A DNA stretch of 64,000 bases from Azolla caroliniana (lineage: Eukaryota; Plantae; Polypodiophyta), in the NCBI GenBank assembly GCA_043228905.1, contig JBHGNT010000011.1:19716001-19780000 (forward strand), in the 5' to 3' direction. Positions 4,312 to 64,000 of this stretch are shown here, one piece after another. Position 1 is the stretch's first letter. Each line of letters starts with the position of its first letter. The position numbers were made by a program, and so were the translations under genes. Under the pieces are notes generated by a model, which was not told where the DNA came from, ran no database searches, and worked only from the letters and a program-made list of their open reading frames with translations.

Positions 4312-5163
4312 TGACGGGAACAGGACGCTCCCTATACGCAACGCTCGGCCACAACCGAGCTTAGAAGCATACACAGAAAACGGGAAATAAAACACGACAC
4401 GAAGAAGAGAAGAGTACACAGGATGTTTACGTGGAAAACCCAAAGAGGGAAAAACCACGGCAGCCCACAAGCTGCAAACTATCACTATGTTAGAATGTAC
4501 AACAGTGAGTTCACGGAGGCAACGACCTCGTGCTCACGATCTTCGCCACAAGCGGTGGTTACAACAGAGGCAACGACCTCTTTCTCTCTCTCTCTCTCTC
4601 TCTCTGTACAAAGTTATGCACTGTCTCTCTCCTTGCACCAACAAGAATGACAACAACAACTAAAAGTTTGCCCTAAGTCATATTTATACTAATATGACTT
4701 TTCGGCTATTTACAAATATAACCATGATGGACTCTTAGAAACATATTTACGAATATGTCTCTTCATCCGGTGAGCACTTCTCACCGGGTCTGCACCATCA
4801 AGCTCTCCGTAGCCGGGTACTCCTCATCTGGTCTTCACCGGGTCTTCACCGGGTCTGCACCATTCGGCTCTCCATAGCCGGGTACTCCTCATCCGGTTCT
4901 CACCGGGTCTGCACCATCCGGCTTTCCGTAGCCGAGTACTCCTCATCTGGTTCTCACCGGGTCTGCACCATCTGGATCTCCGTAGCCGGGTACTCCTCAT
5001 CTGGTTCTCACCGGGTTTGCACCATCCGGCTCTCCGTAGCCGAGTACTCCTCATCCGGTTCTCACCGGGTCTGCACCATCCGGCTCTCCGTAGTCGGGTA
5101 CTCCTCATCCGGTTTCGGCACTGTTCTTCTCCCTTCCCATCCGGAGAGACCTGTCTCCCAACA
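4312..5163 (-). repeat. Copia 3' LTR with about 6 copies of a 54-bp tandem unit
   Basis: Matches 10125-10916; unit ctcaccgggtctgcaccatccggctctccgtagccgggtactcctcatccggtt at ~4780-5115. Confidence 0.95.
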
Positions 5164-5173
5164 AACTCCCCCT

Positions 5174-8100: not shown

Positions 8101-10096
8101 AGAACGTGTCAGACATCCTTCAGCAGCAACTTGCATCCGATTGGTGTTGTCAGCCACACGTCTCCTATGCCAACAATTCGGCATGTACCTTCATTCCCCA
8201 TCCGGACACAACCGTGATCACCGGCTGAGTAGAATGAGAAGCATTTCCGGTCCGGGGTAAGGTGGAACTGACGGGAACTAAACGCTCCTTATGTGCAACG
8301 CTCGGCCACAACCGAGCTTAGAATCATACACAGGAAACGGGAAATAAAACACGACACAAAGAAGAGAAGGGTACATAGGATGTTTACGTGGAAAACCCAA
8401 ACTAAGGGAAAAAAAAAACCACGGCAACCCACAGGTTGCAAACTATCAGTATGTTAGTATGTACAACAGTGAGTTCACGGAGGCAACGACCTCGTGCTCA
8501 CGATCCTCACCATAGGCGGCGATTACAACAAAGGCAACGACCTCTTTCTCTCTCTCTCTATCTCTCTGTACACAGTTGCGCGCTCTCTCTCTCCTTGCAC
8601 CAACAAGAATGACAACAACAGTCATCTAAAAGTTTGCCCTAAGTCATATTTATACTAATATGACTTTTCAGCTATTTACAAATATAGCCTCGATGGACTC
8701 TCAGAAACATATTTACGAATATGTCTCTTCATCCGGTGAGCATTCCTCATCGGGTCTGCACCATCCGGCTCTCCGTAACCGGGTACTCCTTATTCGGTTC
8801 TCACCGGGTCTGCACCATCTGGCTCTCCGTAGTCGGGTACTCCTCATCCGGTCTTCACCGGGTCTGCACCATCCGGCTCTCCGTGGCCGGGTACTCCTCA
8901 TCCGGTTCTCACCGGGTCTGCATCATCCGGCTCTCCGTAGCCGGGTACTCCTCATCCGGTACTCACCGGGTCTGCACCATCCGGCTCTCCATAGCCGGGT
9001 ACTCCTCATCCTGTTCTCACCGGATCTGCATCATCCGGCTCTCCGTAGCCGGGTACTCCTCATCCGGTACTCACCGGGTCTGCACCATCCGGCTCTCCGT
9101 AGACGGGTACTCCTCATCCGGTTTCGGCCTCGGCCGAGTTTGTTCATCTCCCTTCCCATCCGGAGGGACCTGTCTCCCAACAGGAACGACGCTCCGGAGT
9201 CTACCACCCAAGTCATCTCGTCGCCGACAAGGTTTATCTCACTCTCCTCGGTGATGAGCATCAACTCTTCTTCACTTGCCGCGATTGTCATCGTTCCCTT
9301 CCGGTCCGGGGTCCGCTTTGAATCGGTACTGTCGGTTTCCTTGTCTTTTCGGAAATGCTGACAGTTCTTTTGGAAGTGTCCCGGCTTGCCACAATAGAAG
9401 CAAGTGGGCCTTCCCCTTGACTTTGACCGTGTCCCCGACTTCTCCCGGTTCTGGGGACTACGGTTTCTATGTCTTCCGCGTTCTGATTCGGTAAGGAGCG
9501 CTTTGGAGTCGGAGCTTGTATCTTTATCTTTCCGACGCGCCTCCTCATCTAGCAAGCTCGACTTTACTCTTGCTAGGGATAACCGTTTTCCTTCCGGCCC
9601 GGCGTTGCCCAAAGTGACAACCAACGTCTCCCAGCTATCCGGGAGGGAACCGAGCAGGAGTAGCACTAGTACCTCATCGGCGAGAGGTACTTCCAATGAA
9701 GTTGCCTGGTGTATCAGCCCCTGGAAGGCATTCATGTGCTCCGCCATGCTGGAGCCATCTTGGTACCGGAGTCTTACTAGCTTCCGGAATACCGAAACCT
9801 GATTAACAGCATTTTTGTTTTGAAACATAATGCCAATCTTCTCCCAGAGCTCATGAGCCTTGCTCTCTTCATTGAAGTTGTTGTATAGGCTCATGTCGAT
9901 GAAGCACTGTATGTACGCCGTTGTCTTCATGTGCATCACCTCCCATATTGTGGCGTCAATCTTGTCTGGTCTCTTGTCCCTGAACTGAACCGGTAACCAA
10001 AGATCTTTAACCACGAGCATGTCCCTTATCTTCGACTTCCACACTGAATAGTTGGAGCCGGTGAGCTTGAACATGCCGCCAAACGATTCGTCCATT
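5174..10096 (-). pseudogene. Copia gag-pol polyprotein, disrupted by stops, a frameshift and a solo-LTR insertion
   Basis: Gag zinc knuckle CFYCGKPGHFQKNC; protease WVVDSGASF|HLT; GAG-pre-integrase LWHKRLCH; integrase FIDDHSR...NGLAERMNRT; RT LLLYVDDML; RNase H ALSTTEAEY. In-frame stops at ~7133 and ~6356; frameshift near 7815. Confidence 0.95.
8269..9182 (-). mobile_element. Solo LTR of the same copia family, inserted in the protease domain
   Basis: TG...CA copy of the host LTR with 7 x 54-bp units; 5-bp TSD GGAAC at 8264-8268 and 9183-9187; removing it restores DSGASFHLTPDRKCF. Confidence 0.96.
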
Positions 10097-10124
10097 TTCT
10101 GTGTCGTTTTGCTCTGATACCACT

Positions 10125-10916
10125 TGACGGGAACAGGATGCTCCGTATACGCAACGCTCGGCCACAACCGAGCTTAGAATCATACACAGAAAACGGGAAA
10201 TAAAACACGACACGAAGAAGAGAAGAGTACACAGGATGTTTACATGGAAAACCCAAAGAGGGAAAAACCACGGCAGCCCACAGGCTGCAAACTATCACTA
10301 TTTAGAATGTACAACAGTGAGTTCACGGAGGCAACGACCTCGTGCTCACGATCTTCGCCATAGGCGACGGTTACAACAGAGGCAACGACCTCTTTCTCTC
10401 TCTCTCTCTCTCTGTACACAGTTACGCACTGTCTCTCTCCTTGCACCAACAAGAATGACAACAACAACTAAAAGTTTGCCCTAAGTCATATTTATACTAA
10501 TATGACTTTTCGGCTATTTACAAATATAGCCATGATGGACTCTCAGAAACATATTTACGAATATGTCTCTTCATCCGGTGAGCACTTCTCACCGGGTCTG
10601 CACCATCCGGCTCTCCGTAGTCGGGTACTCCTCATCCGGTCTTCACCGGGTCTGCACCATCCGGCTCTCCGTAGCTGGGTACTCCTCATCCGGTTCTCAC
10701 CGGGTTTGCACCATCCGGCTCTCTGTAGCCGGGTACTCCTCATCCGGTTCTCACCAGGTCTGCACCATCCGGCTCTCCGTAGCCGGGTACTCCTTATCCG
10801 GTTCTCACCGGGTCTGCACCATCCGGCTCTCCGTAGCCAGGTACTCGTCATCCGGTTTCGGCCTCGGCCGAGTTTGTTCATCTCCCTTCCCATCCTGAGG
10901 AACCTGTCTCCCAACA
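10125..10916 (-). repeat. Copia 5' LTR with 5 copies of the 54-bp unit
   Basis: Adjacent to the PBS; matches 4312-5163. Confidence 0.95.
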
Positions 10917-10917
10917 G

Positions 10918-11155
10918 ATGATGACCCTATTCCACTTATGGATGGAGTACTCGCTGCCCTCTGAGATCAACAAACGGTTTCATATTGTGGATCCACTATG
11001 GGTACAACTAGAAAGCCAAAGTGATAAGGTAGAAGACATACTCACTCGGGTCCCTAAATGGGAATATGTCTTCATTCCAATATTGCACTCAGGGCATTGG
11101 ATGCTTTGGATGAAGATGCAACAGACTCCTACAGGTCTCGATGCCGATCAATTTG
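10918..11155 (+). pseudogene. Ulp1/C48-like protease fragment (continuation of MULE cargo gene)
   Basis: With the copia removed the frame reads GEMASTWMMTLFHLW...RFHIVDPLW...WEYVFIPILHSGHWMLW; VFIPI-x3-GHW resembles the catalytic-His motif of Ulp1 proteases. The Asp/Gln/Cys part was not found. Confidence 0.55.
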
Positions 11156-11896: not shown

Positions 11897-14800
11897 TTGG
11901 AGATTCCTTTTGAGTCATCAGATTCTGATCGTGAGGATGAGGTGGTCGATCCCTTCATGTATTGTTCCCCCAGGTATTCTGCATTTTCAAGAGGTACGTA
12001 TAATTTGATGGTTAAAGATTTATTGGGACAAGTTAAGGTAACATTGGAAACATTATGTGATGTCACGAGGGGTGCACCTCTTTCATTTCATGGATGGAGG
12101 CACATGAAGAGTTGTCTCATACTCGGGAATGAGGGTGCAATTTACCTTAAAGCATCACCTAATCTTCAAGTATTATACGTCACGAAATGGAGGGAAGTAG
12201 TATTAACATCACATGTTGACACATCCCATCACACATTTTCAAAGACTTTTAAAGAGTTAAAGCTAGTTTACGCGATTGATGTACGTGATTATGGCATCGC
12301 ACCAGAGTACGTAAAAGCACTCATTAGAAGTTGTGGTTGCCAAATGGTATCGAAGGTTGACCCGATAGAAGGTTTGGGATCAAGCATGGCCAAATATAAC
12401 AAGACCCTACCCATAGAAGTGATCAAGGTAGAAACCCACCAATTAGATGATGCGCTCACAAATTTGCAAACCAAGTACCACACACGTTTTAGGAAAGGAG
12501 TCAAGAAGGGTATGCGTGTGACTAGGTATAGTTGCCATCGTGCTAGGACATCTCGGCTTGCATCTAATTCCACTCGACGACGTAGGTGCACACCCCGATG
12601 TGTACGTTAGAATGAATGACAGTGTTGTGAATGAGACACTTACCATTTCAATATATGGACCTCATAGTGGTCATGTACCATGTAGTAGGTCGGATGTGTA
12701 CCATTTGCTAGTACACCCCAATGTCATAAGTTGTTGCAAAGATGACCTATTTGATGTTGGGTGTGCAAGGCATGTAGCACGAATGAGCATGCGTAAGGAA
12801 GCATATCATAAATCCAAGGCTAGTCCATTAGAGCTTGTTAGCTATCGGTTCTTTATGATACCAAAGGAGGTCCATAACATGGAAAATAGGTTAAAAATCG
12901 GGAGTGCCATGACTAAGGTTGATTGGGCTTTGATGATGCAAGATGCCTATGCACTCCGAGATCTTGGGAAAGTGGCTCATGTTCAACCCTACATGCCTCG
13001 TGAACCAGGATCTCCCGCCAGACAACCATTTATCTTGATACTTCAAGATCAATGGATGTTGGAAATGTGTGAGCGGTTGACCCTAAACAACTCTTGGGCA
13101 ATTGACTCGACATTTAAAACAAACCAATTCGGGCTACCATTATATGCAGTTGTTGCCCCCAACGCCATGGGATTTGGGATCCCGTTATGGTACATGCTTT
13201 GTAGTTCTGATAAGGGGTCAAACCATGAGCAGGTCGCATTAAAAACTTGTTTGAGAGTCATATTCTCAAGGATGCCCATGGTGAGGCCAAATGCAATAGT
13301 GATTAATAAATGTTGGACATCATATAATGCCATAACTAATGTGGTTACAACAAACCGTCAATCTTGGATTGTTGTAAATGGGCAACGGTCGCAAACACAT
13401 TGTTGACTTTTGTTGTGTCAGTTTCACACCAAAAAGTCATGGGTGGACAACTTGTTGCCAAAAGTAAGTGCAACTGAGAGAAGCCATCTTTATCAACGAA
13501 TGTGTCAACTAATGCAATGCATTACTGAATCCGCATTCAATGGGATGTGTGAGGAGTTAAAGGTAGAATATGCAGACAAGCCCGATGTTTGGCAATATAT
13601 AGAAGGAGGATGGTGTGGTTTGACATGTGTGTGGAGGAAACTCTAGCCCAAGTTTGGTAGAATGTTCAACTATGGACACGTTGACACTACCAATATTGTG
13701 GAAAGACATTGGCAGTTTATCAAGTATACTGCCTCGAGAGGAAGAATAAACCGATCAATTACCGACCTTCTGCATGTCTTAATCAGGGATAGTGAAATTG
13801 ACACTTGCTTAGGAGGAATGGTAATAGAGTGGTACAAGCAATGACAAGAAATATGTGAGAGTGGTTGGTTTGCACCCCGTGCGAATTGTACGGATCAAAG
13901 GTCCCGACTTAAAGAAGCGGAGATAATATTGGAAAGGTATGTCGACGATACTTCCACAATGGAAATTGTCGACGAGGCCCGATATTGGTTTAGAATCTTG
14001 AGCATGACAACTCCTACTCTATGGTATAATGTCTCACTCCAATGCTCATATTGTGATTGCCAAGACATTGCGAGTAAATGTAAGCATTTACTCGGTATCC
14101 GAAGGATTATTGAGAGGCATATGCCACATTTATGTGACTCGTTGCCTTTTATAGATCACGCTGTCATGAAGAATTTCGGCCAGAGGCGGAAACCGGGAAA
14201 TATTGGCTATATCGGCAGGGTGCACCATGTGCACTCACCCTCGTATAATTGTGTGAATAATAGGAGTTAAGTCGGGACGAAGAATCCCATGTAAATCGGG
14301 ATTTATCCCACATTGTAACGCATCCCTCTCCTTGTTCTATAAAAGGAAGGGATGGTCCCTTGTAGAAGGGTTGCCCATTTTGTATTAGAGGGTATACCGT
14401 TAGTTTAGGGCTAGTCTCTTCTTCTTCTTTCTCTCTTCTTCTTCTTCTCCTTCTCGAGTACTCGGGCGACACCTATGGCGGGAAAGCTGTTAGGTCGACT
14501 CCACTTCTCCTGAGCATACCCGGCTCGCGACCGGGGTTGTATCTCTCCCTGTTGTAGGTTTACTTCTGCCCGACCTCCTGCGCAAGACCCTGCTCGGCAC
14601 AACAAGCCTGTGAGCTCCCAGATCGGCGGCTTGGCAGCAGACCGCTGTTGTAACCTACCTTGGTCCAGCTCGAAGTCGGGGATGTATTCCTTCCCTTGTA
14701 ATATATACATTTGCGTTTGTCTGTGCATATTCGTGTCTCTGTTGGTGTTGGGTGCTTTCCCTTCCCTGCGTTTCCTGTACATAAGGGCGTGAGTTGGGTC

Positions 14801-36906: not shown

Positions 36907-40616
<3,710 letters not shown>

Positions 40617-45894: not shown

Positions 45895-46523
45895 TACCGA
45901 GGTCTAATAAGTACTCAACAAAGATAGCTTATTCGGTACTTTAAGTATCCCATAAAAAGAGGGGAATAATAGGATATGATGGGAGTAAATCGTGTGAGGG
46001 ATTGCTGACAAGAGTGGGTGTCATCAATGTTGATGTAACTGACCTCCCCTTCTACTATAAAAAGGGAGGAACAGTTCTGTTTCGGGGATCCATCATTTTA
46101 GAGGGAGAAGTGTTGTCGGTTTGAGATTCAAAGCTTTGTCATTCTCCCTACTTTCACTCTGTACCTATCATGTGTTCATGACCATTATGGCGTCACCCGA
46201 ACTGAACCTACCAAGGTCTAATAAGTACTCGACAAAGATAGTTTATTTGGTACTTTAAGTATCCCATAAAAAGAGGGGAATAATAGGATATGATGGGAGT
46301 AAATCGTGTGAGGGATTGCTGACAAGAGTGGGTGTCATCAATGTTGATGTAACCGACCTCCCCTTCTACTATAAAAAGGGAGGAACGGTTCTGTTTCAGG
46401 GATCCATCATTTTAGTGGCAGAAGTGTTGTCGGTTTGAGATCCGGAGCTTTGTCATTCTCCCTACTTTCACTCTGTACCTATCATGTGTTCATAACCATT
46501 ATGGTGTCACCCGAACTTGAACC
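45895..46523. repeat. 314-bp tandem duplication spanning an LTR-like sequence and the first ~20 bp of the chromovirus LTR
   Basis: Units 45895-46208 and 46209-46523 are nearly identical; both end in gtcacccgaact(t)gaaccta. Confidence 0.92.
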
Positions 46524-46917
46524 TAGGACCTTATAATCCATGCTTGAAAACCTCAACCATTAAGATAGCTTTTTGTCACATGAGAGGGTAAAAGCTATCT
46601 TTTGTATTACATTGATTATTGTAAAAACTTTGGATCATTCCAAAATGTTCTAGAATGTCCCAGAACATTCTAGAACATTATAGAAATCTCTAAGTTATTC
46701 TATAGGAACCTATAAATAGGGGCATACATGTATTCTCAAATCAATTCAAATGAACACCAGTCTTTAGCTCTCATTACATATCTTGTATCCATTCTCTTTC
46801 TTTTTCTATCTTAATACACCCATTCTTCTCTTAGCATTTTGTTCCTTTCTTCTCGTGTTCCCTTATATCCTTCTTCTAGCACTCTATCTTTTATTCTTGG
46901 TTTTGACAGTTTGATTC

Positions 46918-46968
<51 letters not shown>

Positions 46969-49900
46969 CTCCTTTATAACCATCACGAAACTATGGCCGC
47001 CATCAACTCAGAAGAATATCTCACCCTTGTTGCAGAAATGGAGAATCTTAAATCCAAGTTCGCATCACTTGAAGTAGAGAATCAACGTCTACTTGGGGAT
47101 CTACAAAAGGTTACTATAGAGAAGCAACAACAACAAGAGGAGTTCACGCGACGGGTTTAATAGTTAGAGTTGACAATTGTAGTGTTACAACAACAAAGGG
47201 TCGATAGTCAAGGACTTATCAAGGAGCCCAAAATCAACCTCCTGTCACAGACATGAAAGCAATTATGTCAAGATTCGAACTCATAACCTCTTGTATTATA
47301 GTCAAGTGTTATGTTGTAACCAATACATTCAAATACATGGTCATGTTATATATATCTTAGTAAATTATTAGTAGATTATTTATTTCAAGCTCTAGGAGTT
47401 TTTAGAAAGTTCTAGAAGTAGAAGGTTCTAGAATATTATCCAAAATATTCTAATGCATGTACTTCAAATCACAGTATAAATACTTGTAACCTCCTTGGTC
47501 CCTTTCAAGGGATTCAAACTGTCACGGACATACCAAGCGTGGACTAGGACGGAGCACAAATGATAGTGCTACAAGCGACGGATGAACTTAGAGCTAGATG
47601 TGACACAAGAGTATGAAGATAGACATGAAGATCAATGAGACAACGATGAGGCGAAACAAGGGTTGCATAGTCGCCCACCCATTTGTGTTCGAGTTCTCGG
47701 TGAGGGCCGCATGGTCACTCACTCCCGTTCAGCTCATCCTTGCACCATGATGCTTTCGAAAAGGCGGCCGTAAAGGGGATGATAATGTCACAAACATGAA
47801 AATAATTATGTCAAGATTCAAACTCTTAACCTCTTGTATTATAGTCAAGTGTTATGTTGTAACCAATACATCCAAATACATGGCCATGTTATATATATAG
47901 CTTAGTAGATTACTATTAGATTATTTATTTCAAGTTCTAGGAGTTTTTAGAAAGTTCTAGAAGTAGAAGGTTCTAGAATATTATCCAGAATATTATAATG
48001 CATGTACTTCAAATCACAGTATAAATACTTGTAACCTCCTTGGTCCCTCTTAAGGGATTCAATGCTAGTCATTGACACATCAATCTAGTATTCTTGTTTC
48101 GCCTCATCCTTGCCTCATTGATCTTCATTTCTATCTTCATACTCTTGTGTCACATCTAGCTCCAAGTTCATACATTAGCTTGTAGCCCTATCATCTGTGC
48201 TCCGTCCTAGTCTGCACTTGCTATGTCCGTGACACCTCCCAACTAAATTTGATGGTTCGAGGGTGCATTTCTGAGGTTTCTTGAATCAAGTACGGTTGGT
48301 TATTCAAATGCATCCCACGTGTTATCTGACAGATGCATCACGAGTCGGGTTAGTGGGCACCTTATTGACTGGCATAACGTTGTCGTGGTTTGGTCCATTG
48401 CTAGAGACAAATTCTCCTCTACTAATTCATAATTTTGAGGAATTTATCAAAGAATTTAAGGCTTGCTTCGGAGATACTGATGGGGGGAGAACAACAATCA
48501 ACAAGATTTGTACACTACATCAAGGTGATCAGCCAACATCGACATATGCAACCAATTTTCGTCTCATCGCAAGCGATATTCCTTGGGATGAACAAGCCCT
48601 AATGGAGCAATTCCGTTCCGGCCTTCATAGTGATGTGAAAGACTTACTTCTTACCTTCCCTGAAGACCCAAGTTCACTTACATAAACTATTAGTCGAGCA
48701 ATACGGTGTGATAATTACCTTTTCTAGCGTCTATGTGAGCAAGAACAACAAATAACAAGATCAAGATTCACACCAACTTATGCATCAGTAATGGTGCAAT
48801 CATCTCCAAGGCAACATATAGCCCTACTCCAACTCCAAGGCAAACACGTAGTCCAATCCCAATGATAGTCCTACACCCATGGAGATCGATATGACTCAAC
48901 GACGAGGACTACTGTTGGACAAAGAGAGGCAACGACGCCAAGCAAACCGTTTGTGCTTATATTGCGGAGGTTCAGGACATATAGCCATTCATTGCTCCCA
49001 CAGGCCGAGATGTCGGGTAAATCAAATTCACTATGACAAAAAAAATGAGTCCAACATTTTAGAAATAGTTAGTGAATCTAATATTATGAATAATCCACCC
49101 TTGTCCAATAAGTTTGAAATGCTAAGCCAATTAGAAGAGGAGTCAAATGAATAAGTCCAGCCAAAATAGGAGCCATTTGGTTAGACAACCCTAGATATGT
49201 ACAACCTAGCCTAGTGTAGGTTCCATTTCTTCCAAGCATGTTAGTAGAGTCTTCTCATCCCAAGTACAAGTTAGGACACCGAGTTGTCAACTTCAGGTTC
49301 AAGCCCTCGTAGATACTGGAGCCAATTCTTGTTTCATGGATAGAGTTTTTGCCCAAAAACACCAAATATCCTTGCATACACTTCCTTGTCCTGTTTCCAT
49401 AGTAGTGACTGATGGACGTCCCATAGCTTCCGGGAAGATATTCGAAGAGTCTAAGCCAATACAAATGCTCTTAGGTGATTTAGGATGTGTAGTTTCCTTT
49501 AACATATCCGTAGTCCTGAGCATCCAATTGTCCTCGGTTTGCCATGGTTCGAGCTACATAACTCTAGAATAGATTGTAGGAAGCGAGAAATTTGGTGCCC
49601 TTCAGCAAAAAATATCATTGCCAAGGATGGAACTCAAGATTATTCTCTTAAAGAATATAGTTGTACCAATGCACCATCTCCTTTTCATCAAATTTCATCC
49701 ACCACATTGCAACAATTGTGCCAAGTGGGAGGCAAGGAGGACCTTCTCTTATTTGCAGTATCAATGACACCTTCTAGTGCTACTCACAGGAATTCAAACA
49801 TCCAAATTCCCAAAAAATATCAAGAGTATGCTGATGTTTTCGACAAAGTCAAAGCTAGTGTTCTTCCAAAGCATTGGTCGTACGACTGTCCTATTGACCT

Positions 49901-52900
49901 CCAACTAGGAACAGAGCCATCGTGGGGTCCGATTTACAATTTTTCACGAACTGAACTTGAGGTTCTTCGAGAATACATCGAGGGGAATCTTGCACATGGG
50001 TTTATTCAACATTCAAAGTCTCCAACTGGTGCTCCTATCATTTTTGTGAAGAAAAATGACAGCTTCCTTCGTTTGGTCGTGGACTATCGAGGCTTTAATA
50101 AACTCACCATAAGGAATAAGTATGCTCTACCTTTAATCTCCAATCTTTTAGAGCGCATTGGTGGGGCAAAGCATTTTACCAAAATTGATCTAAAGGGTGC
50201 ATATAATCTTGTTCGAATTCACCTGGGAGATGAGTGGAAAACTATATTTCGTACTCGGTATGGTCATTTCGAGTATACAGTCATGTCTTTCTGGCTCACA
50301 AATGCACCAACAGTTTTTCAACATATGGCAAATGACATTTTCTGGGATTTCTTAGATATCTTTCTCATCATCTACCTAGATGATCTATTGATTTACTCTA
50401 AAACACAGGAGGAGCATGATATACATGTGCGGAAAGTACTTGAATGCCTAAGAAAGTATGGTCTTTATGTCAAACTTGAGAAATGCAGTTTTGACTGCAA
50501 ACAAGACAAATTTTTGGGATACAATATTTCATCCAAGGATTTTTTCATGGATCTGGCAAAAGTCCAAACAATATTGGAATGGAAACCCCCATGCTCAGTT
50601 CGGGACATCTAGTGTTTCATCGGATTTGCCAGCTTCTATCGCAAATTCATACGTAATTATTCAAGCATTGTGTTGCCCCTCACCCAACTCACCAAGAAAA
50701 ATCAAGCATTTTTTTGGAGTATCGAAGTGGACAAGGCTTTTACTCAACTGAAAGAGGCATTCACATCAGCACCTATCCAAGCGCATATTGATCCCGAAAT
50801 CTCGAAAAGCCATTTACTATTGAGGTGGATGCGTCAAACTTTGCATTGGGGAGTGTCCTATCGTAACCAGGCGAGGACGGGCAGACTCATCCAGTCGCAT
50901 TTCACTAGTTGTGGAGATAAACTATGAGGTGCATGACAAGGAGTTACTAACTTTGTGGTAGACTCATTCAAGTAATGACGACATTTCCTAGAAGGATCGC
51001 CTCATCATATTATCATTTATAATGATCACAAAAATCTCACATATTTTCAAACAGCTTGAGTATTAAATAGACGACAAGCTCGGTGGGCTCAATTTCTAAC
51101 GTGTTTCGATTTCAAGATCATTTTTCGCCCAGGAAAACAACAAGGGAGAGCAGATGCTTTGTCTCGACATTTGTATCTAGCACTTCCACCTAGAGATCCG
51201 GCTTTCGACAATCAAAAGCAGATTCTCCTTGGGTCATCAAAGGTACATGCAACAACAATTTATGCCACGCCACTTGATTCAAGCCTTCTTGAAACTATTC
51301 GGCAACAATTTCACTTCGATGATTTCACTAAGGATGTCTCAGCCCACATTGGCTCAAGTCGTCCATCTTGCTCCACATTGCAAGGGTCATCTCAACATTA
51401 TCAAGACTTCAAGTAGCAAGATGGATTACTCTTCTATAAGAATCTCCTTTACGTCCCTGACGGATCACCACGACTTCAAGTGTTAGAAAATTGTTATGAT
51501 CCCCTCATGGCTGGACATTTTGGTATTGCCAAGACCATTGAGTTGGTGAAACGTTCATTTTGGTGGCCTCACTTGCAAAAATTTGTCAAAGATTACGTTC
51601 GCACATGTGACACATGCTATCGCGCCAAAATACCTAGGCATCATCCTTATGGCTTACTACAACCATTACCACCTCCCAGCAAGCCATGTTAGTCTATTTC
51701 TATGGATTTCATTACGGACCCGCCACCTTCCAAAGGCTTTCATACTATTTTAACAGTAGCGGATCGGTTCACCAAGATGGCACAATTTGTATTGTGTGTA
51801 AGACCATCAGTAGTGAAGAAACTGCAAATCTCATTATGCGTGAAGTGTTTCGCCATTATGGTCTTCCAAATAATATTATTAGCGATTGAGGTCCTCAATT
51901 TATCTCACACTTTTGGAAGCACCTATGGGCATGCCTCAAAATCTCCTGCAAACTCTCTTCGGCTTATCATCCACAAACAGACGGACAAATAGAGCGCACA
52001 AATCAAACGCTCGAGCAGTATCTTTGATGCTTTATCAGTTATCAAGAAGATGATTGGAGTAATATTTTACATCTTACCGAGTTTGACACAATACACTCTT
52101 CTACCAAAGTTACACTTTTATTTGCCTACACTGCCAACCACCCTCGATGGTGTATCCTAGATCTTCCCGAGGTGTCATGAAACCCTAGTGCGGCGCATCA
52201 CCTCCACCGACTACAACAAATCCAGTTCGAGTTATCTTCCCATCTTCAACAAGCGCAAGCACACCATAAGGCCAATGCAAATCGGCATCGTCTTAAGTCT
52301 CCTTTTAAGGTTGGTGATTGAGTATGGTTGTTTCGTCGTCACATCAAGACTACCCAACTGTGTTCTAAGCTCAATTATCAACGCTGAGGTCCTTTTGTCA
52401 TCACATCGCGGATTAATGATGCAACATTTCTTCTTAACCTTCCAACACAGATGCAGCTTCACCCAGTCTTTCATAGCTCTCTTTTGGAACCTTGCCGCAC
52501 CTCTTTAATTCCTAATCATGTCGTGCCACCACCGCCTTCTGTCCAACTTGTTGACGGCCCTGAATACGAGGATTGAAAACTTCAAACATTAAGATAGTTT
52601 ATTATCACATGAGAGGATAAAAGCTACCTTTTGTATTACATTGATTATTGTAAAAACTCTAGATCATTCCAGAATGTTCTAGAATGTCCTAGAATGTTAT
52701 AGAAATCTCTAAGCTATTCTATAGGAACCTATAAATAGGGGCATACATGTATTCTCAAATCAATTCGAATGAACACCAATCTTTAGCTCTCATTACATAT
52801 CTTGTAGACATTCTCTTTCTTTTTCTATCTTAATACACCCATTATTCTCTTAGCATTTCGTTCCTTTCTTCTCGTGTTCTCTTATATCCTTCTTCCATCA

Positions 52901-52927
52901 CTCTATCTTTTATTCTTGGTTCTGACA
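46505..52927 (+). mobile_element. Ty3/gypsy chromovirus-type (Tcn1-like) LTR retrotransposon, decayed
   Basis: 5' LTR 46505-46908 (TGTCA...TGACA); 3' LTR ~52574-52927 lacks its first ~40 bp, the PPT and most of the chromodomain. Gag CLYCGGSGHIAIHC, protease LVDTGA, RT YLDDLL, integrase GHFGIAKT and ISMDFITD; many stops. Confidence 0.93.
47243..48234 (+). mobile_element. ~1-kb non-coding LTR element with a rearranged 5' LTR, nested in gag
   Basis: TSD CCTCC at 47238-47242 and 48235-48239; removal restores KEPKINLPTKFDG. Structure: U3 (47243-47517), inverted U5 (47520-47660), short internal part with PPT (aaggggatgataa), full LTR 47787-48234. Confidence 0.92.
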
Positions 52928-55029: not shown

Positions 55030-57454
55030 CCTTCGTTCAAGACCCTGGCAGTCCTGCCTTAGATCATACATGTACCCGCGAAATGTCGCAACAATCTGAT
55101 ACCCAATGTTGGTTGTACATAACCTCATTTATTTCTTTACAAATATTTATTGATTACCAAGAGCAAAGTTGTACATTGAAGTTCATTTTCCCAAATCTTG
55201 CAGGAAGAAACCATATACTTAAGATAAATATATACATGAAGATTGTCAACATTGAAGGGTATAATATATAACTAACTTTCGTAGGTGCAGTCGTATTTAC
55301 ATATTATGTATGTCATGTATGTCAATAGGCTAAGCCTTGAGGGCCGAGGCTCATCTATGATTACTCATTATTTACTTACTAAAACTTTATAAAAATGGTA
55401 AATTCTTGGAAGTTGTGGGATGGAATCAATAACACCAATTGATTAATGTAGTCTAAATAAGCTCGAAAAAGCATGCACACATACACACTCAATATATGTC
55501 TATATATATGTATGATGCTTCACTTTTGTACAACTTTATCTTTGTTATTTGTAAACATAATAACATATTTAGTGAAGGACATGTGCTATACTTAATGTAA
55601 ATAAGGGCATTCGCAGGTAACTCCATCAAATAAAAATATATGAAGGGCAAGTGTGATTGTCAAAATAAAACCATCATTGGGATACTTTTTGACCAAACGA
55701 TGTGGTATAATTTTATTTTCCAATTAGAGATAGAGCAAAGTTACTTAAATATCATTTCATAAGCCTGATATTTAGGAGGTTTAATGTGCTCAAGCTTAAA
55801 CAAATGCCTCAAACCTAAATCCTTAATTAGTTGAAAAACACCCCTTCTCTTTAGTTGGTGTTTTCAATGTACAATTTTTTTTCCTATGCATTTAATGCTG
55901 ATTGGCACATATGCATGGCTTGTTGTATTGTTGCAATACATTGTTATTATGGTGAGAAGTGACGTATTGTTGACACCTTTGGGCATGGATGAGGATAGAG
56001 AGAGCACGAACCTTATTTGATAGGGTGGTTCTTTTCATGTTGTTTGGGTCTTGGTTGGATGATTCTTATTTGTTTCTTCATTGACATTTCTTTCATGTTG
56101 TATTATTTGCCTTTCTATTCTATATGTGGTTTTTTTGGAATCCAAGCAAATTTCAACAATTGCCTTCTTGTGGATGTGTGAGTATTAAAAGGAATCATTA
56201 AATTATATTTACACCCACTTAGAATAACAAGTGTGGCCAACAATTGCATTGAAATTTATGGCTCGTGGATGTTAAGTTGCTTTCACTCTTTATTTTCTCA
56301 TCACCTTTATTTTTACAAGTTATTTTCTAAATGTGTTGATTAATATTTCTATCTTAACTTCGATTATTGTGATTAAATCTAGGATTGCAATAATAGTTTG
56401 ATTGATGATCTATTATTCATGAATATGATTTCTACGGCATGATTGTGTATATCAACAATAAATATGATAGTATGAGAGGAGGGTTGGGTCTGATTGATCC
56501 CCTCTCACAATCCAAAGCCCTACTTGCCAAATTTGTGGTGCGAGGACTCCTATCAAGAGATGATTGTTGGAAAATGCTATTTCGATTATGCTTCACTTAC
56601 TTTAAGCCACAAAAAGGGGTCAATTGGGCCCCTCAAACGGGATGGATTCTAAACATGGACTATGAGATCGGAAATTATGAACACTCTATTACTTAGGGAA
56701 GCTGCTAATCAAAGGGTGACAATGGAGAAGTGGATAGGCTACGAGGAGGAGGGCTCTTTGATCCAAAGAGGTATTGAAATATCAGACAAGATCGAAGACC
56801 ATGAATTGTGACTCAATGATATACCAACATTGATTATGGCAGTTCAAGGACTCGCATATACTAGTCGTAAATGGATTGTAGATCCAGATCTGATCAAAGT
56901 ACGACCATAATGACACATATGACTCATGAAAACACATGGTTACTTAAAGCTAGTTGGGACCCTTTGCAATGGACGTGGCGTGATCCTTATGCGGGTCAAG
57001 GAAGCAAAGACATCCATTTCTTCCAATTCATGACTAGATTGGGTCACCACATTCTAGCCGCTCAAACCGTTTGAGAGCTAGCTGTGGCAAAGATATTGCA
57101 CACATATCATGTTCCCCATACAATTATCACTAAGTTTTTGTCACAGATCATAAACTCAAGAGACAAGCAAGAAGATAACCAAATGGACAAGAAAGAAGAT
57201 AGTATTAAAGGAAAGACTCCATAACTGGTGTTGTTCACCTTGAATTCCTTCAAGGTGAACTCCTCTATTTATACTACATGGCATGCATACTTGTTGCACG
57301 CATGTGAATCTACAATAGAGCATGTAGGTATGCATGCATGTGCCAAGTGTAAATACTACAAGGGTGCAACTATGCACATGATGCTAGCAAAATAATAAGG
57401 ACCAATTACATACATAACTAGTACTAGATATCTTGGTTAACTCATAATACTAGA

Positions 57455-60400
57455 TTATAACATGGTCGTGTCAAGAGTTCGAATCTTGACATTATCCCCC
57501 CTCTTACGCCGCCTTCCCAAATCGGCCACTGGTTTGTGGGGATATCGGTGATGAAAATCTTGGACGACCTCTGGGGCATTTTGTAAATTTGCCGATGGTT
57601 CCCATGTGGCCTCAGACACGGGGTAACCCCTCCATAGGATGAGGTATTGCAAGTGTCGACGGTGCCAACGCGAGTCAAGGATTTGGTCGACCTCGTATTC
57701 CTCCCCTGTCGTCAATTGCATAGGTGGTGGTGGTGGGGCTTGACGACCTGGGAGTTGTGAAGCATAATGGGGTTCGAGGAGGGAGACATGAAAAACATCG
57801 TGAATCTGGAAGTGGGATGGAAGGGCGAGCCAGAAGGCGACGGGATTGATGCACTCGATGATACGGAATGGTCCCAACTTCTTGTAATCAAGTTTCGCAC
57901 ATGGACGAGTAGTAGAGATGTGTCGACGTAACAACCAGACCATGTCTCCAACGACAAAGTGTGGAGTGGAAGATCGATGGCAATCAGCCTGCTTCTTGTA
58001 TCGTTCACTAGCAAGACTAAGCTCCAAGGATAAATCATGATGTAGTTCTTCCAAAATGCGGGCGCGATCCTCCGCCGAAAGGTTCATGGAAGTGGTAGGA
58101 AGGGAAATGTTGAAGCGAGGATGTAAACCGTAGTTGGCAAAGAAGGGAGTGACGCCAATCGATGCATGGAGAGAATTATTGTAGGAGAATTCCGCGAGCG
58201 AAAGTAAGTTGACCCAATCATCTTGTTGGTAACTAACCGAGCACCGAAGATACTGCTCAAGGATTTGGTTGACACGCTCCGTTTGCCCGTCAGTTTGGGG
58301 GTGATAAGCGGAGGACAACTTGACAGAGATGCCTAAAGTTTGTAGCAGGCGCTGCCAGAAGTGAGAGACAAACTGGGGTCCGCGATCCGAGATGACATCA
58401 TCGGGGAGTCCATGCAAGCGTACCACATTGTTGAGTAGGAGATGCACCATTCCTTCTCCGGAAATGGTTTTGGAGCATGGAGTGAAGTGAGCCATCTTCG
58501 TAAACCGATCGACAATGACCAACACTGAGTCATAGCTATTGACCAAGGGTAGATCAGTTATCAGGTCCATAGAGATAGAGGCCCAAGGACGACGAGGACA
58601 TGGAAGCGGCTGTAGTAAGCCGTATGGCCGATGATGAATGGCTTTGGAGCGAGCACAAACCTCACAACTCTTTATGTATTCTTTGACCAGCTTCCATGGT
58701 TGTGGCCACCAATACCCCCGAGAGATTAGCTCGAGGGTTTTCGCGACCCCGAAATGACCTGCAAGTGGGTCATCGTGGCATTCCCGCAACACCCAGGTGT
58801 GACATGGGCCCTCTGGGACGTATAAGAGATGATCTCGGAACAACAAACCCTCTTGTATGGTGAAGGTGTCAAGATCCTTCCTTTTGGTCGCCTTGGAGGG
58901 GTTTTGCAGACTATCTCGAATCTCGTTGGCGAACGCATCGGTCTTGGATGCATCAGTGATTTGTTGGAGTAAAGAATCATCCTGCAACATACAAGTGGCA
59001 AAAAGATGCAATTGGTCGGGTTTCAACAAACGTCTAGATTGTTGAGCATAAGCAGTATCCCTACGGCGGAGTGCAAGGTCAGCTTGGCGAGAAAGGGCAT
59101 CAACCTTCCCATGTTGGCCACCAGGTCGAAATACGATCTCAAAATCGTAGTCGGCGAGAAATGTCGACCAACGGGCCTGCCTTCGATTCAAAGTACAAGT
59201 GGTGGAAAAATAAACTAAATTTTTATGATCAGTCACTACCTGGACACGATGTTGTGCGCCGGCCAAGTAGGGTCGCCATTCTTCAAAGGCAGCAATGATA
59301 GCAGCAAGCTCCTTGTCGTAAATGGGATAATTAATTTCGGATGCCGTAAATTTTCGGGAATAGTAAGCCACTGGGTGCATTAGGTTGTTGTCGTCTGCCT
59401 GGGATAAGATGGTGCCAATGGCAAAGTCAGAGGCATCGATTTCGACTTGGAAGGGTTTTGTGGGGTCGGCATGTAGCAGCACCGGGGCAGTGATGAATGT
59501 GTGTTTGAGTGAGTTGAACTCATTTTGTGCCTCCGAGGTTCATAAAAATGGAGTGCCTTTATGGGTGAGAACGATAAGAGGTTGTGCTAGGGTGGAAAAC
59601 CCCTTGATGAAGCGACGGTAAAAATTCGCGAAGCCGAGGAAGGATTGCACATCTTTAAGTCGCCTTGGAGTTGCCCACGCCTGAATGACAGAGACCTTCT
59701 TCATATCCATGGTGATGCCAGTGGGCGAGATGATGTAGCCTAGAAATTCGATCGAGGTACGGTCGAACTCGCATTTCTCGCCTTTGGCATAAAGGCCATG
59801 CTCGCGAAGTTTGGCAAGAACTAATCAGACTTGGCGAGTGTGCTCCTCCATGTTTGGCGAGAAAATGAGAATATCATCGAGGTAAATGACAACAAAAAGA
59901 TCAAGATATTCCCGGAAAATATCGTTCATCATATGTTGAAAAACTGCGGGAGCGTTAGTAAGACCAAAAGGCATTACCTTGTATTCAAAATGCCCATACC
60001 GTGTTCGAAATGCGGTTTTCCATTCATCCCCCAGCTTGATGTGTACTAGATTGTACGCTCCACGCAGATCAACTTTGGAGAAGACACGCGCAACTCGGAG
60101 CCGATCAAGGAGTTCGGGGATCAGAGGTAGCGGATAGCGGTTGCGCACAGTGAGTTTGTTGAGACCTCGGTAGTCGACGCATAAGCATAGAGAGCCGTCC
60201 TTCTTCTTCACAAATAAAATGGGGGCCCCGGCTGGTGACTTAGAAGGTTGAATAAAGCCTTTCTCGAGGTTCTCATCGAGATACACACGAAGGGCCTTCA
60301 ACTCTGGTGTAGACAACGCATATAGAGGACCAAAGGGTGGACACGCACCTTCTTGAAGATCAATCGGACAATTGTAGAGCCGGTGTTCCGGCAAACGATC

Positions 60401-61035
60401 AGCATTACATTTTTCAAATACGTCGGAGAAGTATTGGTATTTTTCGGGAATAACATGGAGTGTGTTAGAAATGGCGCCACAAACAAACCCATCTTGGACC
60501 GATGATGGGGTAGTCAATTCGGAGTCGACCGTCTCCGAAGGATGGGAAACTGAATTTACCTTCATACTTTTGCACGAGCATCTTGGCTTGCTAAATGTGA
60601 TCGAGCGGTTGCACCAATCCACTATTGGATTGTGCGCCTCCAACCACGTTAGTCCTAAGACGATCGGATGTCGAGGAGATGCAATGAGGTAAAAGGTGAG
60701 CTCCTCTTGGTGTGAGCCCACCTGAAGCCCTAATGGATTGTAGCTTGACTAATTGCACCTGACGAGAGGACGCACCCGTCGATGGCTTCAACTGGAATGG
60801 GTTTTGAGAGGCCAACGACAGGTACGCCATGTGCTTGGGCAAACGCGACGTCGATGAAGCAAGAAGATGCCCCAGAATCAAGTAAAGCAACAGACTGAAT
60901 GGAACTAGAGTTAAACGAAAGCCATACCTCCAATGTGAAATTGCTTGATGGTCCGGCAATGGAACCAAGAGAATGTGGACGACGGGAGATGTCCAGTTGC
61001 ATGGCTCCTACTGCAACCGAACGATGTCCTTTTCC
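57455..61035 (-). pseudogene. Chromovirus pol (PR-RT-RH-INT-chromodomain), disrupted
   Basis: [45 protein letters not shown], chromodomain EYEVDQILDSR...YLILWRGY...ATWEP; frameshift near 60725 and stops near 59825. Confidence 0.93.
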
Positions 61036-62024
61036 AGATGTTGGGGTCCGTTGGCTCGATGGAATTGTGGGCGAGTACTCCTAGGACAATGGCGAACGAC
61101 ATGACCGGAGGCGCCACAATACATGCACAAGCCATTAGCCCGCCGAAATGGTCGTTCAGCATCAGTCAATGGCCGAAATCGGGCTTGATCAATTTCCATG
61201 GGGACAGGAGCATCTGCCGAAGTAGGCGAGTGTGAGGATGCTTGGGGTTGTATGACCGGGGCGTGGCGTGGAAGTGAATGAGGTGGAACCCAAGTCCGGC
61301 GCTCTTCTTGGCGAAATTCGAAAAGACGATTGTCACAATGGACTGCTTGTGAAATCGCTTGGGATAACGAGGTGGGCTCTGGAAAGTTTAAGAGAAGATT
61401 CTTGACATTGCTTCGAAGACCGCGCCGAAAGTGATCAGCTAAAGCTTGATTATCCCAATTGCCGTCGCATGCTAGTTGTCGAAATTCGGAAGCATAGACC
61501 GAAGCTGTACGTGAACCTTGTTCGAGTGCATAAATCTTGTTAAGAGTTGTACGTCGTCGGTCCGTCTCTCCAAATGTGGCCTCTAACTCGGTGAGGAAGG
61601 CGGGAAAGTTCTCCAATAAAGGTGATGAGGTTTCTACCAATGGTGCAAACCAAGCTTGGGCCAGACCGGAGAGAAGGGTGCCCACAAGGCCGACTTGTCG
61701 AAGACCATCTCCATAACGTTGAGGTTGTAGCCGAATGATAAGTCGAACTTGGTTGATGAACCCTCGGAAACGCGACCTCGTTCCATCAAATTTTTCTGGG
61801 AGGCTAACCTTAGGCTCAAGAAACTGTGACGAAGCTAAGCTAGATGTTGGTAGAAGATCGGGCTCTAGGCTAGGTTGTTGTGGGAGACTAGGGTTCGGGG
61901 GTTGTGAGGATAGGGAGGTACCGACTTGAAGTTCTTGTAAAGAATTTCGAAGAGCTTCATTTTCAAGCTGTAGTTGTCGTAAGGCTACCATTATTTGGCC
62001 TAACTCACTAGTTGAGTCGGACAT
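61008..62024 (-). CDS. Chromovirus gag (338 aa, open)
   Basis: EPKVSLPEKFDG, retrotransposon gag core YASEFRQLA, PMEID, zinc knuckle CMYCGASGHVVRHC. Confidence 0.92.
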   Translation of the reverse strand: MSDSTSELGQIMVALRQLQLENEALRNSLQELQVGTSLSSQPPNPSLPQQPSLEPDLLPTSSLASSQFLEPKVSLPEKFDGTRSRFRGFINQVRLIIRLQPQRYGDGLRQVGLVGTLLSGLAQAWFAPLVETSSPLLENFPAFLTELEATFGETDRRRTTLNKIYALEQGSRTASVYASEFRQLACDGNWDNQALADHFRRGLRSNVKNLLLNFPEPTSLSQAISQAVHCDNRLFEFRQEERRTWVPPHSLPRHAPVIQPQASSHSPTSADAPVPMEIDQARFRPLTDAERPFRRANGLCMYCGASGHVVRHCPRSTRPQFHRANGPQHLEKDIVRLQ

Positions 62025-64000
62025 AGCTATGGCTTATGAGAGGGAGAGCTATGAGGATGGGGAGGTGAACAAACTATCACGAATCATAAACTCAAGAGAT
62101 AAGCAAGAAGATAACCAAATGGACAAGAAAGAAGATAGTATTAAATGAAAGACTCCATAACTGGTGTTGTTCACCTTGAATTCCTTCAAGGTGAACTCCT
62201 CTATTTATACTACATGGCATGCATACTTGTTGCACGCATGTGAATCTACAATAGAGCATGTAGGTATGCATGCATGTGCCAAGTGTAAATACTACAAGGG
62301 TACAACTATGCACATGATGCTAGCAAAATAATAAGGACCAATTACATACATAACTAGTACTAGATATCTTGGTTAACTCATAATACTAGATTATAACATG
62401 GTCGTGTCAAGAGTTCGAATCTTAACAGTTTTGGTAGAAAATCCAAAAACAACAACACACTAGGCGAATTACCATGTTCAAATGACTATTAATACATAGG
62501 TCACTACCGATTGGAGCGTTGTAGTGTGGGAACCTTAGCTCTCCTAATTGTGTAGCCTTTGTGGGACTGCCCAAAGACCCATTCAATCTAAGGAGGGGGT
62601 TGGCCAACTACTACAATTATACCAAGTGCAAGGCACAATCAAGTGGGGGAGCGTATGTTGGTTATCATGATAGGCCTTAGTTGACAGGTACGAACATCAA
62701 GAGGAGGGGATGACTTTGGTGATAAAAGCACAACAGATTTCTTTTCCCACCATTGATAATATCCACTCAACTCCTATTAATGTCAAAGCGCAAGTAGTGT
62801 TGGAATTGGTCAGCCCAATAACTATTTGGATGCGATGGAAACAACGGTGTAGACGGGTGTTGCCCAACCAAACCGTGCATCAAGTAATGTTAATGCAGGA
62901 GATATGGTGTGAAGTGGTAGCCCCTCTAAAGAGCTAATACGATAGCCTCATAGGCGGATCCGATGGAGTTGAAAGAGAACGATTAGCCTTCATCCAACAA
63001 TAGTCGTCCTCTCCCTTTCTTGAGTCAGTGGGCATTCACATAAGATGGAACTATCGCATCCCTACAGGGATTTGTATGTAACACTCATCTGTAAAATTTA
63101 TAATTAATGGATGGAATTTTTTTTTGAAATAAATAAATATGATAGTATTTATATTTATATATTCAATGTTGCTTAAAAAATATAGTAGTAATTGTGGATT
63201 AGAATTTGTGTTGAGTATGTTTATCATATAATTAGATAAAATTACGTATATACATATGCTAATGTGAGGCAATGAGGTAAGAGACATTTCTACTTATGTC
63301 AAGTCTAAGTTTGGAGTTTCAATAACTAAGTTTTACTAATCTATTTCATTGAGCTTCGAGTACTATGGAAACCAAGGGCTATACCTCTCAACGATCTCTA
63401 TTCAAATTATGAGTTTTGAGTAGGGCAACGAGAAACCTTGAAGCAAGCTGACAATTCCCCTCACAAATGAGAGAAGTATTGTAAAGGATTAAATTCAAAC
63501 TATAAATATTACATTATTTAATCAACAAGATATTTTATTGCCCAAAAACTTGATGTTTGAAAAGGAGCTAATGAATTGAGATCTTACTATTTATCTTGAT
63601 TCTCGATAGTTCTTAGCAATTTTCATAAGGACTTCTAGTCATGTGATGTAACATGTGCACCTACACATAAAAAGGTAAAAGAATTTATTTTACATTATCA
63701 TATTGAATGAGGGGAAGGCCATGGGAACTTGAGTGCAATGAGTCAAAGCCTTATACTCTTGACACCCTCATTTCTAAACTCGGTTCTTTTTGTCCCCATT
63801 TGCAATGATGAGTACTATAAGTTACTGCAAGGGTCAAGTCCTAAATCCAAAGTTGATGGAACCTTTATTTAATAGAACAATTTGATTCTTGTAGCCTTAG
63901 ACAAAACGCACGCGTCTCTTAGACAGTAGACTAACATAAATGTTGTAAAAATAGTCCCTCGTACAAATATCTACATAAAACCATGCAAGACGTGGATTAT

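What the first reader, a model, noticed from the sequence alone, without database searches (positions are those of the whole stretch)
47243..48234. Genomic fossil of a self-priming reverse-transcription junction: 11-nt 5' RNA end fused to inverted U5
Seen: the 5' LTR reads U3, TATAAATA (47475), then 32 nt after the TATA start the 11-mer AAGGGATTCAA (47507-47517), then AC, then TGTCACGG... (47520-47660), which is the reverse complement of the 3' end of the intact LTR (~48092-48234). In the intact LTR the 11-mer continues TGC instead, so the switch falls exactly after nucleotide 11. Established: fission-yeast Tf1 primes minus-strand DNA with the first 11 nt of its own transcript annealed just downstream of the 5' LTR, so strong-stop DNA reads primer, spacer, antisense U5. 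Both neighbouring chromoviruses have a GT spacer after the LTR, whose complement is this AC. Inference: the element records a template switch or inversion at the self-primer/PBS inverted repeat, giving DNA-level evidence of self-priming in a plant chromovirus. It has a perfect 5-bp TSD and a PPT, so it may be a mobile non-autonomous derivative with a large U5 fold-back.
Basis: partly seen in the sequence, partly recalled or inferred. Interest (0 to 1): 0.85.

Follow-up and report, generated by a model that had tools for sequence, protein, structure and literature searches.

The report
Recurrent primer-site inversion in self-priming retrotransposons
A broken, likely immobile copy of a small non-coding retrotransposon in a plant (probably a fern) has part of its terminal repeat flipped exactly at the 11-base sequence that its family is predicted to use to prime its own reverse transcription, and the same flip shows up in other, diverged copies, so it is likely a repeated by-product of that priming design.

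Summary
The structure is real: a 992-bp element with a CCTCC target duplication, reading U3, 11-mer, AC, 141 bp of antisense U5, a 125-bp internal tail with PPT, and a full LTR. The string '11-mer-AC-antisense U5' is only the minus strand of any normal U5-GT-PBS junction, so it does not itself prove self-priming; the abnormal event is the switch from U3 onto that strand through the primer/PBS inverted repeat. Parents were found: a non-coding LTR family with GT-TTGAATCCCTT after the LTR (12 of 70 loci), primer and PBS covarying across three primer types, always 32-33 nt after TATA. Four divergent contigs in two other organisms securely carry the same junction; 0 of 70 ordinary loci do. The copy has lost its PBS and is likely dead, not mobile. 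Best reading (about 50%): a copied-primer (PBS) cDNA tail, known from Tf1, annealed to the primer site of an LTR; rival (about 38%): chromosomal inversion plus deletion. Self-priming was already predicted for moss and lycophyte Tcn1; my searches found no report for ferns, non-autonomous families or this junction. The scan had not noted it on other DNA.

The parts
47238..47242 (+). left target-site duplication CCTCC, in the gag region of the host chromovirus
   Evidence: contigs of empty host copies skip 47238-48234 (table 5)
47243..47506 (+). U3 of the 5' LTR, TATAAATA at 47475-47482
   Evidence: 15 substitutions in 275 columns against 47786-48062
47507..47517 (+). 11-mer: predicted self-primer on +, PBS when read on -; the switch point (junction 1)
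47518..47519 (-). GT spacer between LTR end and PBS, read as AC on +
   Evidence: same spacer in 12 parent loci and both neighbours
47520..47660 (-). inverted copy of the last 142 nt of the LTR (U5)
   Evidence: 13 substitutions in 141 columns against 48093-48234; score 225 against its own LTR, at most 134 in 70 loci
47661..47730 (+). remnant of the internal 46-nt tandem array (one full unit 47685-47730); junction 2 at 47660/47661, 2 shared bases (AG)
   Evidence: one contig of run X3 crosses the junction (table 3)
47728..47785 (+). 3' end of the internal region with the polypurine tract (47772-47785)
   Evidence: matches the block before the 3' LTR in relatives
47786..48234 (+). intact 449-bp 3' LTR (TGTCA...TGACA), TATA 48020, 11-mer 48052-48062, inner stem 48068-48083 complementary to 48218-48233
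48235..48239 (+). right target-site duplication CCTCC
46544..52927 (+). host chromovirus (decayed; left LTR ends not exactly resolved); 11-mer 46744-46754 and 52763-52773, PBS 46911-46921, offset from TATA 33
   Evidence: match 9 of 11 (5' LTR) and 10 of 11 (3' LTR)
57139..62427 (-). neighbouring chromovirus with gag, RT, RNase H, integrase, chromodomain; TSD AAAAC; 11-mer 62177-62167, PBS 62072-62062, offset from TATA 32; same primer type as the type-B non-coding elements
   Evidence: match 10 of 11

Best explanation
This is a rearranged, likely dead copy of a non-coding LTR retrotransposon family whose 11-base primer and primer-binding site are complementary and are predicted to self-prime as in Tf1; the flip at the 11-mer recurs in other copies and likely arose from reverse-transcription intermediates. 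Shown: anatomy, TSD, parent PBS, primer/PBS covariation, loss of the PBS in this copy, recurrence of junction 1. Inferred steps: (1) the parent RNA starts at the 11-mer, which pairs with the PBS, and a helper chromovirus supplies RT and integrase; (2) as in Tf1 the primer stays on the minus strand and is copied, giving a DNA 3' end U5-GT-PBS; (3) that end anneals to its only perfect complement in the element, the 11-mer of an LTR, and is extended over U3, which gives U5-GT-PBS-antisense U3, the minus strand seen here; (4) a second jump with 2 shared bases in the GC-rich tandem array joins this piece to the 3' part. Steps 3-4 can happen in the particle before integration (TSD made by integrase) or by annealing of a cDNA end to a copy already integrated (TSD kept). 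The product has no PBS and would not prime again.
For: Parents: 12 of 70 loci have LTR end-GT-PBS of this type, 9 of the 12 exact; of 14 LTR/PBS pairs with a TATA in range 10 match 11 of 11 (7 type A, 3 type B; A and B differ at 4 positions, all compensated); neighbours 10 of 11 at offsets 32-33. The 11-mer pairs with the PBS (10-11 bp) in the predicted fold of 5 of 5 parent leaders, with an inner stem of R on the U5 end. Junction 1 recurs: of 32 pieces listed (1,896 records laid, 4 runs) 4 have at least 31 nt on both sides with 10-13 differences and no gaps (X1 r1, r3; X11 r9, r10), against at least 17-23 for any ordinary site with gaps allowed and 29-33 without. About half of Tf1 cDNA keeps a single-stranded PBS at its 3' end, which directs insertion at homologous sites and tandem arrays with single LTRs (PMC11042837, sections 8, 9, 13); such arrays occur in this family (L012, L048, L003). 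Neighbour RTs group with fungal and vertebrate elements rather than the angiosperm rows.
Against: Structure alone does not separate this from a chromosomal inversion plus deletion. Divergence of the U5 arms (13 of 141) is not significantly above that of the U3 pair (15 of 275; Fisher p 0.15), so a donor in trans is not shown. The inverted repeat extends about 16 nt further (inner stem), which also favours replication slippage. 4 of 14 LTR/PBS pairs match only 7 of 11 (type-A primer with type-B PBS, in arrays or collapsed contigs). The host's 5' leader folds weakly (6 primer pairs, -8.4 kcal/mol). Six of the 10 long-looking pieces fail the 31-nt rule and 5 of those cannot be told from an ordinary LTR with a small deletion. 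The secure pieces could be alleles or orthologues, so the number of independent events is unknown. The sections of PMC11042837 I read do not describe inverted insertion at the self-primer. No RNA, TSS or cDNA data.
Confidence: 0.5

Rival explanations
1. Chromosomal event after integration: a replication template switch or recombination between the 11-mer and the PBS (an inverted repeat with a 160-240 nt loop, extended by an imperfect 16-nt inner stem) flipped the loop, with a deletion of about 1 kb at the same time or later. No reverse-transcription intermediate is needed.
For: Keeps the TSD; explains why the inverted arm is closest to this element's own U5 (225 against at most 134); thousands of family copies offer the same repeat (depth tables, rough); arms and U3 pair diverged about equally.
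Against: Needs two events or a return point about 1 kb away; the reciprocal junction is missing here and in 0 of 70 loci (but junction 1 is also 0 of 70, so this has little power); none of the 32 listed pieces shows a switch in the inner stem (weak: the list is cut and gaps lower the likeness).
Confidence: 0.38
2. One reading: a mobile non-autonomous derivative with a U5 fold-back that has spread; the other junction-bearing contigs would be its copies.
For: Perfect TSD, LTR ends and PPT; one X2 contig with the junction has depth 89 against 10-12 for single contigs of that run; a transcript through the whole 3' LTR would fold into a long hairpin (-324.8 kcal/mol).
Against: No PBS on the transcribed strand, and the primer is unpaired in the predicted fold; the secure contigs differ from this copy by 12-14%, more than its own repeats differ from each other (5-9%); identical junction words also arise from separate events in identical parents.
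Confidence: 0.07
3. Assembly chimera at two repeats.
For: No listed contig spans the whole element; no genome or long reads were available.
Against: The arms differ at 9% of sites, unlike a collapsed copy; one X3 contig crosses junction 2 with at least 44 nt on each side of the marked sites; junction 1 stands in independent runs; the TSD is perfect.
Confidence: 0.03

Closest known systems
Tf1/Tf2 of Schizosaccharomyces pombe (Tf1/sushi group)
   Same: 11-nt sequence after the TATA box complementary to a PBS just past the 5' LTR; stem of R on the U5 end; retained PBS tail and tandem arrays described in PMC11042837 (passages and sections 8, 9, 13 read).
   Different: Here the parents are non-coding, the host is a plant, priming is inferred from sequence only, and the copy carries an inverted U5 that the sections I read do not describe.
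Plant Tcn1 chromoviruses (PMC6317226, PMC2864245; passages read)
   Same: Predicted self-priming, chromodomain with aromatic residues, RT 73% identical to a Cryptococcus deneoformans protein, non-seed-plant host.
   Different: Reported from mosses and Selaginella; a PCR survey of 26 ferns and horsetails found none. Host here is probably a fern; no non-autonomous partner or recurrent inversion in the passages read.
TRIM / LARD non-autonomous LTR retrotransposons
   Same: LTRs, PBS, PPT, TSD, no coding capacity, tandem arrays sharing LTRs (PMC6934838, passages read).
   Different: About 2 kb with about 450-bp LTRs, between the two size classes (size limits recalled); PBS is self-complementary rather than tRNA-type.
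Inverted-repeat template switches in chromosomal DNA (recalled, no call)
   Same: Inversion bounded by a short inverted repeat plus a deletion with microhomology.
   Different: The repeat is the priming stem, so the breakpoint is the same in many copies.

Membership tests
Self-priming (Tf1-type) LTR retrotransposon | PBS complementary to a sequence in the element's own LTR, starting 0-5 nt after the 5' LTR | tested here: met
   parents: 10 of 14 pairs 11 of 11, 4 chimeric 7 of 11; neighbours 10 of 11. The window copy itself has lost the PBS.
Self-priming (Tf1-type) LTR retrotransposon | compensatory change between primer and PBS | tested here: met
   types A and B differ at 4 positions, all compensated; host type differs further, 10 of 11 paired
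Self-priming (Tf1-type) LTR retrotransposon | three-duplex 'pretzel' leader | tested here: inconclusive
   primer duplex and inner duplex predicted in 5 of 5 parents; no clear third duplex within the 20 nt folded past the PBS
Self-priming (Tf1-type) LTR retrotransposon | transcript starts at the primer; RNase H cut after nucleotide 11 | not testable with these tools
   no RNA holder or raw reads offered; only the constant 32-33 nt distance from TATA
Tcn1 clade (coding neighbours) | RT-RH-INT phylogeny with reference Tcn1 elements | tested here: inconclusive
   22-row RT tree: window RTs apart from 7 angiosperm rows (100/100); group with Cryptococcus, Absidia, Adiantum open (87/83); no named Tcn1, Galadriel or Mordred references
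Tcn1 clade (coding neighbours) | chromodomain with aromatic cage | tested here: met
   PF00385 E 5e-16; Y, W, Y at the cage positions (positions recalled)
Tcn1 clade (coding neighbours) | moss or club-moss host | tested here: inconclusive
   poly(A) polymerase exons best match fern proteins, 67-68% against at most 59% for named seed plants in the top 25; no named moss or lycophyte among the 120 compared
Non-autonomous LTR retrotransposon (parents) | LTRs, PBS and PPT without gag or pol | tested here: met
   8 internal regions of 0.75-1.46 kb in 6 loci; only a 44-residue integrase tail next to type-B LTRs
Mobile non-autonomous derivative (window copy) | minus-strand priming site on its own transcript | tested here: not met
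   0 PBS-like sites with up to 2 mismatches in 47243-48300
Mobile non-autonomous derivative (window copy) | several copies sharing both junctions with different TSDs | not testable with these tools
   no genome held; contigs are short and absence is not shown by them

The most novel reading that the evidence does not exclude
Self-priming LTR retrotransposons leave a stereotyped integrated by-product, U3-primer-AC-antisense U5, made when the DNA copy of the retained RNA primer anneals back to the primer site of an LTR; counting such junctions would read out primer retention and the 5' end of the RNA from genome sequence alone, in lineages (ferns, non-autonomous families) where self-priming has never been assayed.
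Probability: 0.4. Interest if true: 0.7.

Novelty: new variant of a known kind. Interest (0 to 1): 0.47.

Why it matters
Self-priming has been shown by experiment in Tf1 and only predicted in plants. A high-copy non-coding family with primer and PBS changing together, tied to coding chromoviruses in a probable fern, extends the prediction to a new lineage and to non-autonomous elements. If the recurrent junction comes from cDNA ends, it is a countable genomic trace of a Tf1 property (primer retention, PBS-tail annealing) and a source of long hairpin loci; if it comes from chromosomal slippage it is a modest inversion hotspot. One census in an assembled genome can decide.

Tried and rejected
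No genome of the window was held, so the census of copies could not be run. No RNA holder was listed: no statement on expression or TSS. Runs X1, X2 and X5 showed no record laid at 47657: a part without cover, not used as evidence that they lack junction 2. Junction pattern in viral contigs: 0 matches, uninformative. Three pieces that start at 47495-47497 (only 10-12 nt left of the primer) were left out; five further pieces were downgraded after the control showed that R resembles antisense U5 up to 47536. The 'opposite strands' joint 47605/48140 was read as a U5 variant split over the two arms, not as a new junction. L013 was dropped as the same contig as L012; many loci come from related assemblies and are not independent. 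The 125-bp tail was checked as a chromodomain remnant and rejected: it matches the tandem array and pre-PPT block. Cluster look-up gave no useful names. The primary paper on primer retention in Tf1 (Atwood-Moore 2006) was not held; I rely on its description in PMC11042837. Searches of earlier findings: none by sequence; two unrelated notes by words, not used. Supplements of PMC6317226 were not opened and may list fern or further Tcn1 elements.

Full report
Observation. The element spans 47243-48234, begins TGTCA, ends TGACA and is flanked by CCTCC on both sides. 47243-47517 matches the first 277 nt of the intact LTR at 47786-48234 with 15 substitutions in 275 columns; after AC, 47520-47660 is the reverse complement of 48093-48234 with 13 substitutions in 141 columns. 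TATAAATA lies 32 nt before the 11-mer in both copies. It sits in the gag region of a decayed chromovirus (about 46544-52927) whose LTRs differ at 23 of 355 columns, similar to the element's own 28 of 416. Contigs of empty host copies skip exactly the element plus one TSD (table 5).

What the junction is. Read on the minus strand, 47660 to 47507 is U5, GT, TTGAATCCCTT: an ordinary 5' LTR/PBS junction. All 17 hits of primer-AC-TGTCA in 70 related loci are this ordinary reading and none has U3 upstream. A second junction at 47660/47661 joins antisense U5 to the family's internal tandem repeat; in relatives 26 of 36 matching repeat starts are preceded by GTGAG and the arm ends ACAAG, giving 2 shared bases. 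Thirty bases of R, the PBS and about 1 kb of internal region are gone.

The parents. One scan of metagenome contigs with a 19-nt LTR motif gave 71 loci, 70 distinct (many from related assemblies). Of 38 LTR right ends, 8 are followed by GT and the type-A PBS, 7 by GT and a type-B PBS, 23 by unrelated flank; a direct search found the type-A junction in 12 loci, 9 exact. Of 16 LTR/PBS junctions 14 had a TATA in range: 10 match their own 11-mer at 11 of 11 (7 type A, 3 type B) and 4 pair a type-A primer with a type-B PBS (7 of 11), in tandem arrays or high-coverage contigs that may be recombinant or collapsed. Types A and B differ at 4 positions, all compensated. The coding neighbour at 57139-62427 has the type-B primer 32 nt after TATA and a 10 of 11 PBS; the host has a third type, 33 nt after TATA, 10 of 11 against its 3' LTR and 9 of 11 against its 5' LTR. 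Five of 5 parent leaders fold with the primer on the PBS and an inner stem of R on the U5 end; the host leader folds weakly. Eight internal regions in 6 loci are 0.75-1.46 kb, carry a 46-nt tandem array and no gag or pol except a 44-residue integrase tail beside type-B LTRs. The family is therefore non-autonomous, forms arrays with shared LTRs, and is linked by sequence to the coding type-B chromovirus (helper role inferred).

Recurrence. Logan contigs of four runs (three organisms by their codes) were laid on 47468-47568; 1,896 records were laid and 32 pieces listed. Ten pieces run without gaps from at least 31 nt before the primer to 9-47 nt past it. Because R resembles antisense U5 up to 47536, I tested how close an ordinary site can come. 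Four pieces with at least 31 nt on both sides (X1 r1, r3; X11 r9, r10) have 13, 10, 12 and 13 differences against minima of 19, 18, 17 and 23 with gaps and 31, 29, 31 and 33 without: secure. X2 r18 (3 against 6 and 12; depth 89 against 10-12) is probable. Five are not separable from an ordinary LTR with a small deletion. The secure pieces differ from the window by 12-14%, so they are probably other loci; they could be alleles or orthologues of each other. By summed depth the junction is of the order of one per thousand LTRs, a rough figure since depth is no copy number. One X3 contig (depth 16) crosses junction 2 (table 3), which argues against misassembly; no listed piece spans the whole element.

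Mechanism. PMC11042837 (abstract, passages, sections 8, 9 and 13 read) states that about half of Tf1 cDNA keeps a full single-stranded PBS at its 3' end, that such ends direct integrase-independent insertion at homologous sites, that a distal recombination is thought to truncate the insert, and that tandem arrays with single LTRs result. In a self-priming family the primer site of every LTR is a perfect target for that tail in inverted orientation; extension over U3 gives the minus strand seen here. This could happen in the particle (minus strand jumps in the tandem array onto a strong-stop DNA, copies U5, GT and the retained primer, then anneals to the primer site of a plus strong-stop) or on a resident copy. 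These steps are inferred. A chromosomal template switch at the same inverted repeat gives the same sequence and is a close rival; arm divergences do not separate them (p 0.15). Mobility is unlikely: the predicted transcript has no PBS and its primer is unpaired.

Host and clade. Poly(A) polymerase exons in the window match three named fern proteins at 67-68% and named seed-plant proteins at 59% or less among the top 25 of 120; no named moss or lycophyte was in the set, so 'fern' is probable only. The neighbour's RT is 77% identical to an Adiantum protein, 73% to Cryptococcus deneoformans, 72% to Absidia, 68% to a snake protein and 54-60% to angiosperm rows; the tree separates the angiosperm rows at 100/100 but leaves the inner group open. 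It has a chromodomain. This fits the Tf1/sushi-Tcn1 side without proving Tcn1 membership.

What is known. PMC6317226 (passages) predicts self-priming for plant Tcn1 (moss and club-moss only) and TAR elements. PMC2864245 (passages) found no priming signal for SM-Tcn1 and no Tcn1 clones in 26 ferns and horsetails. The S. osmophilus preprint (passages) describes the pretzel leader. PMC6934838 (passages) describes TRIM arrays. Eight searches of the open library (listings only except the papers named) showed no title or abstract on self-priming in ferns or in non-autonomous families, or on this inversion; subscription journals are not covered and supplements were not opened.

Verdict. Observation confirmed; interpretation partly right. 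The copy is a dead rearrangement, and self-priming in plants is not a new prediction, but the covarying non-coding family in a probable fern and the recurrent, position-exact inversion are a new variant worth a genome-wide census. Interest 0.47.

Noticed in passing
L012:1122-7764, L048, L003: Head-to-tail arrays of the non-coding element with shared LTRs alternate two LTR types; inner LTRs pair a type-A primer with a type-B PBS (7 of 11). Recombinants or collapsed assembly (coverage 9-34).
   Followed up: partly
L012:4329-4460, L003:1015-1146, L001:44-175: The non-coding elements carry the last 44 codons of the integrase of the type-B coding family (70% identity) next to the PPT, pointing to their helper or donor.
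   Followed up: partly
window 57139-62427 (-): Young chromovirus (LTRs differ at 6 of 351) with TSD AAAAC; the bases just before its 11-mer form a palindrome with it, so the primer has a second complement in U3.
   Followed up: no
window 4312-10920: Copia element on the minus strand with three LTR copies (about 4312-5163, 8269-9182, 10125-10917), each with 54-nt tandem repeats; the middle one lies between gag and integrase.
   Followed up: no
window 45895-46525: Tandem duplication of 314 bp (95% identical) just upstream of the host chromovirus; the host's left end and TSD were not resolved.
   Followed up: no
window 46922-46966: A CT microsatellite directly follows the host's PBS.
   Followed up: no
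L043:2078-2407: An antisense piece of U3 lies about 150 nt upstream of a sense LTR fragment: a different inverted arrangement, not at the primer.
   Followed up: partly
window 36976-40289: Nuclear poly(A) polymerase gene, exons closest to fern proteins; used only to place the host lineage.
   Followed up: partly
window 12522-13406: MULE transposase fragment (PF10551).
   Followed up: no
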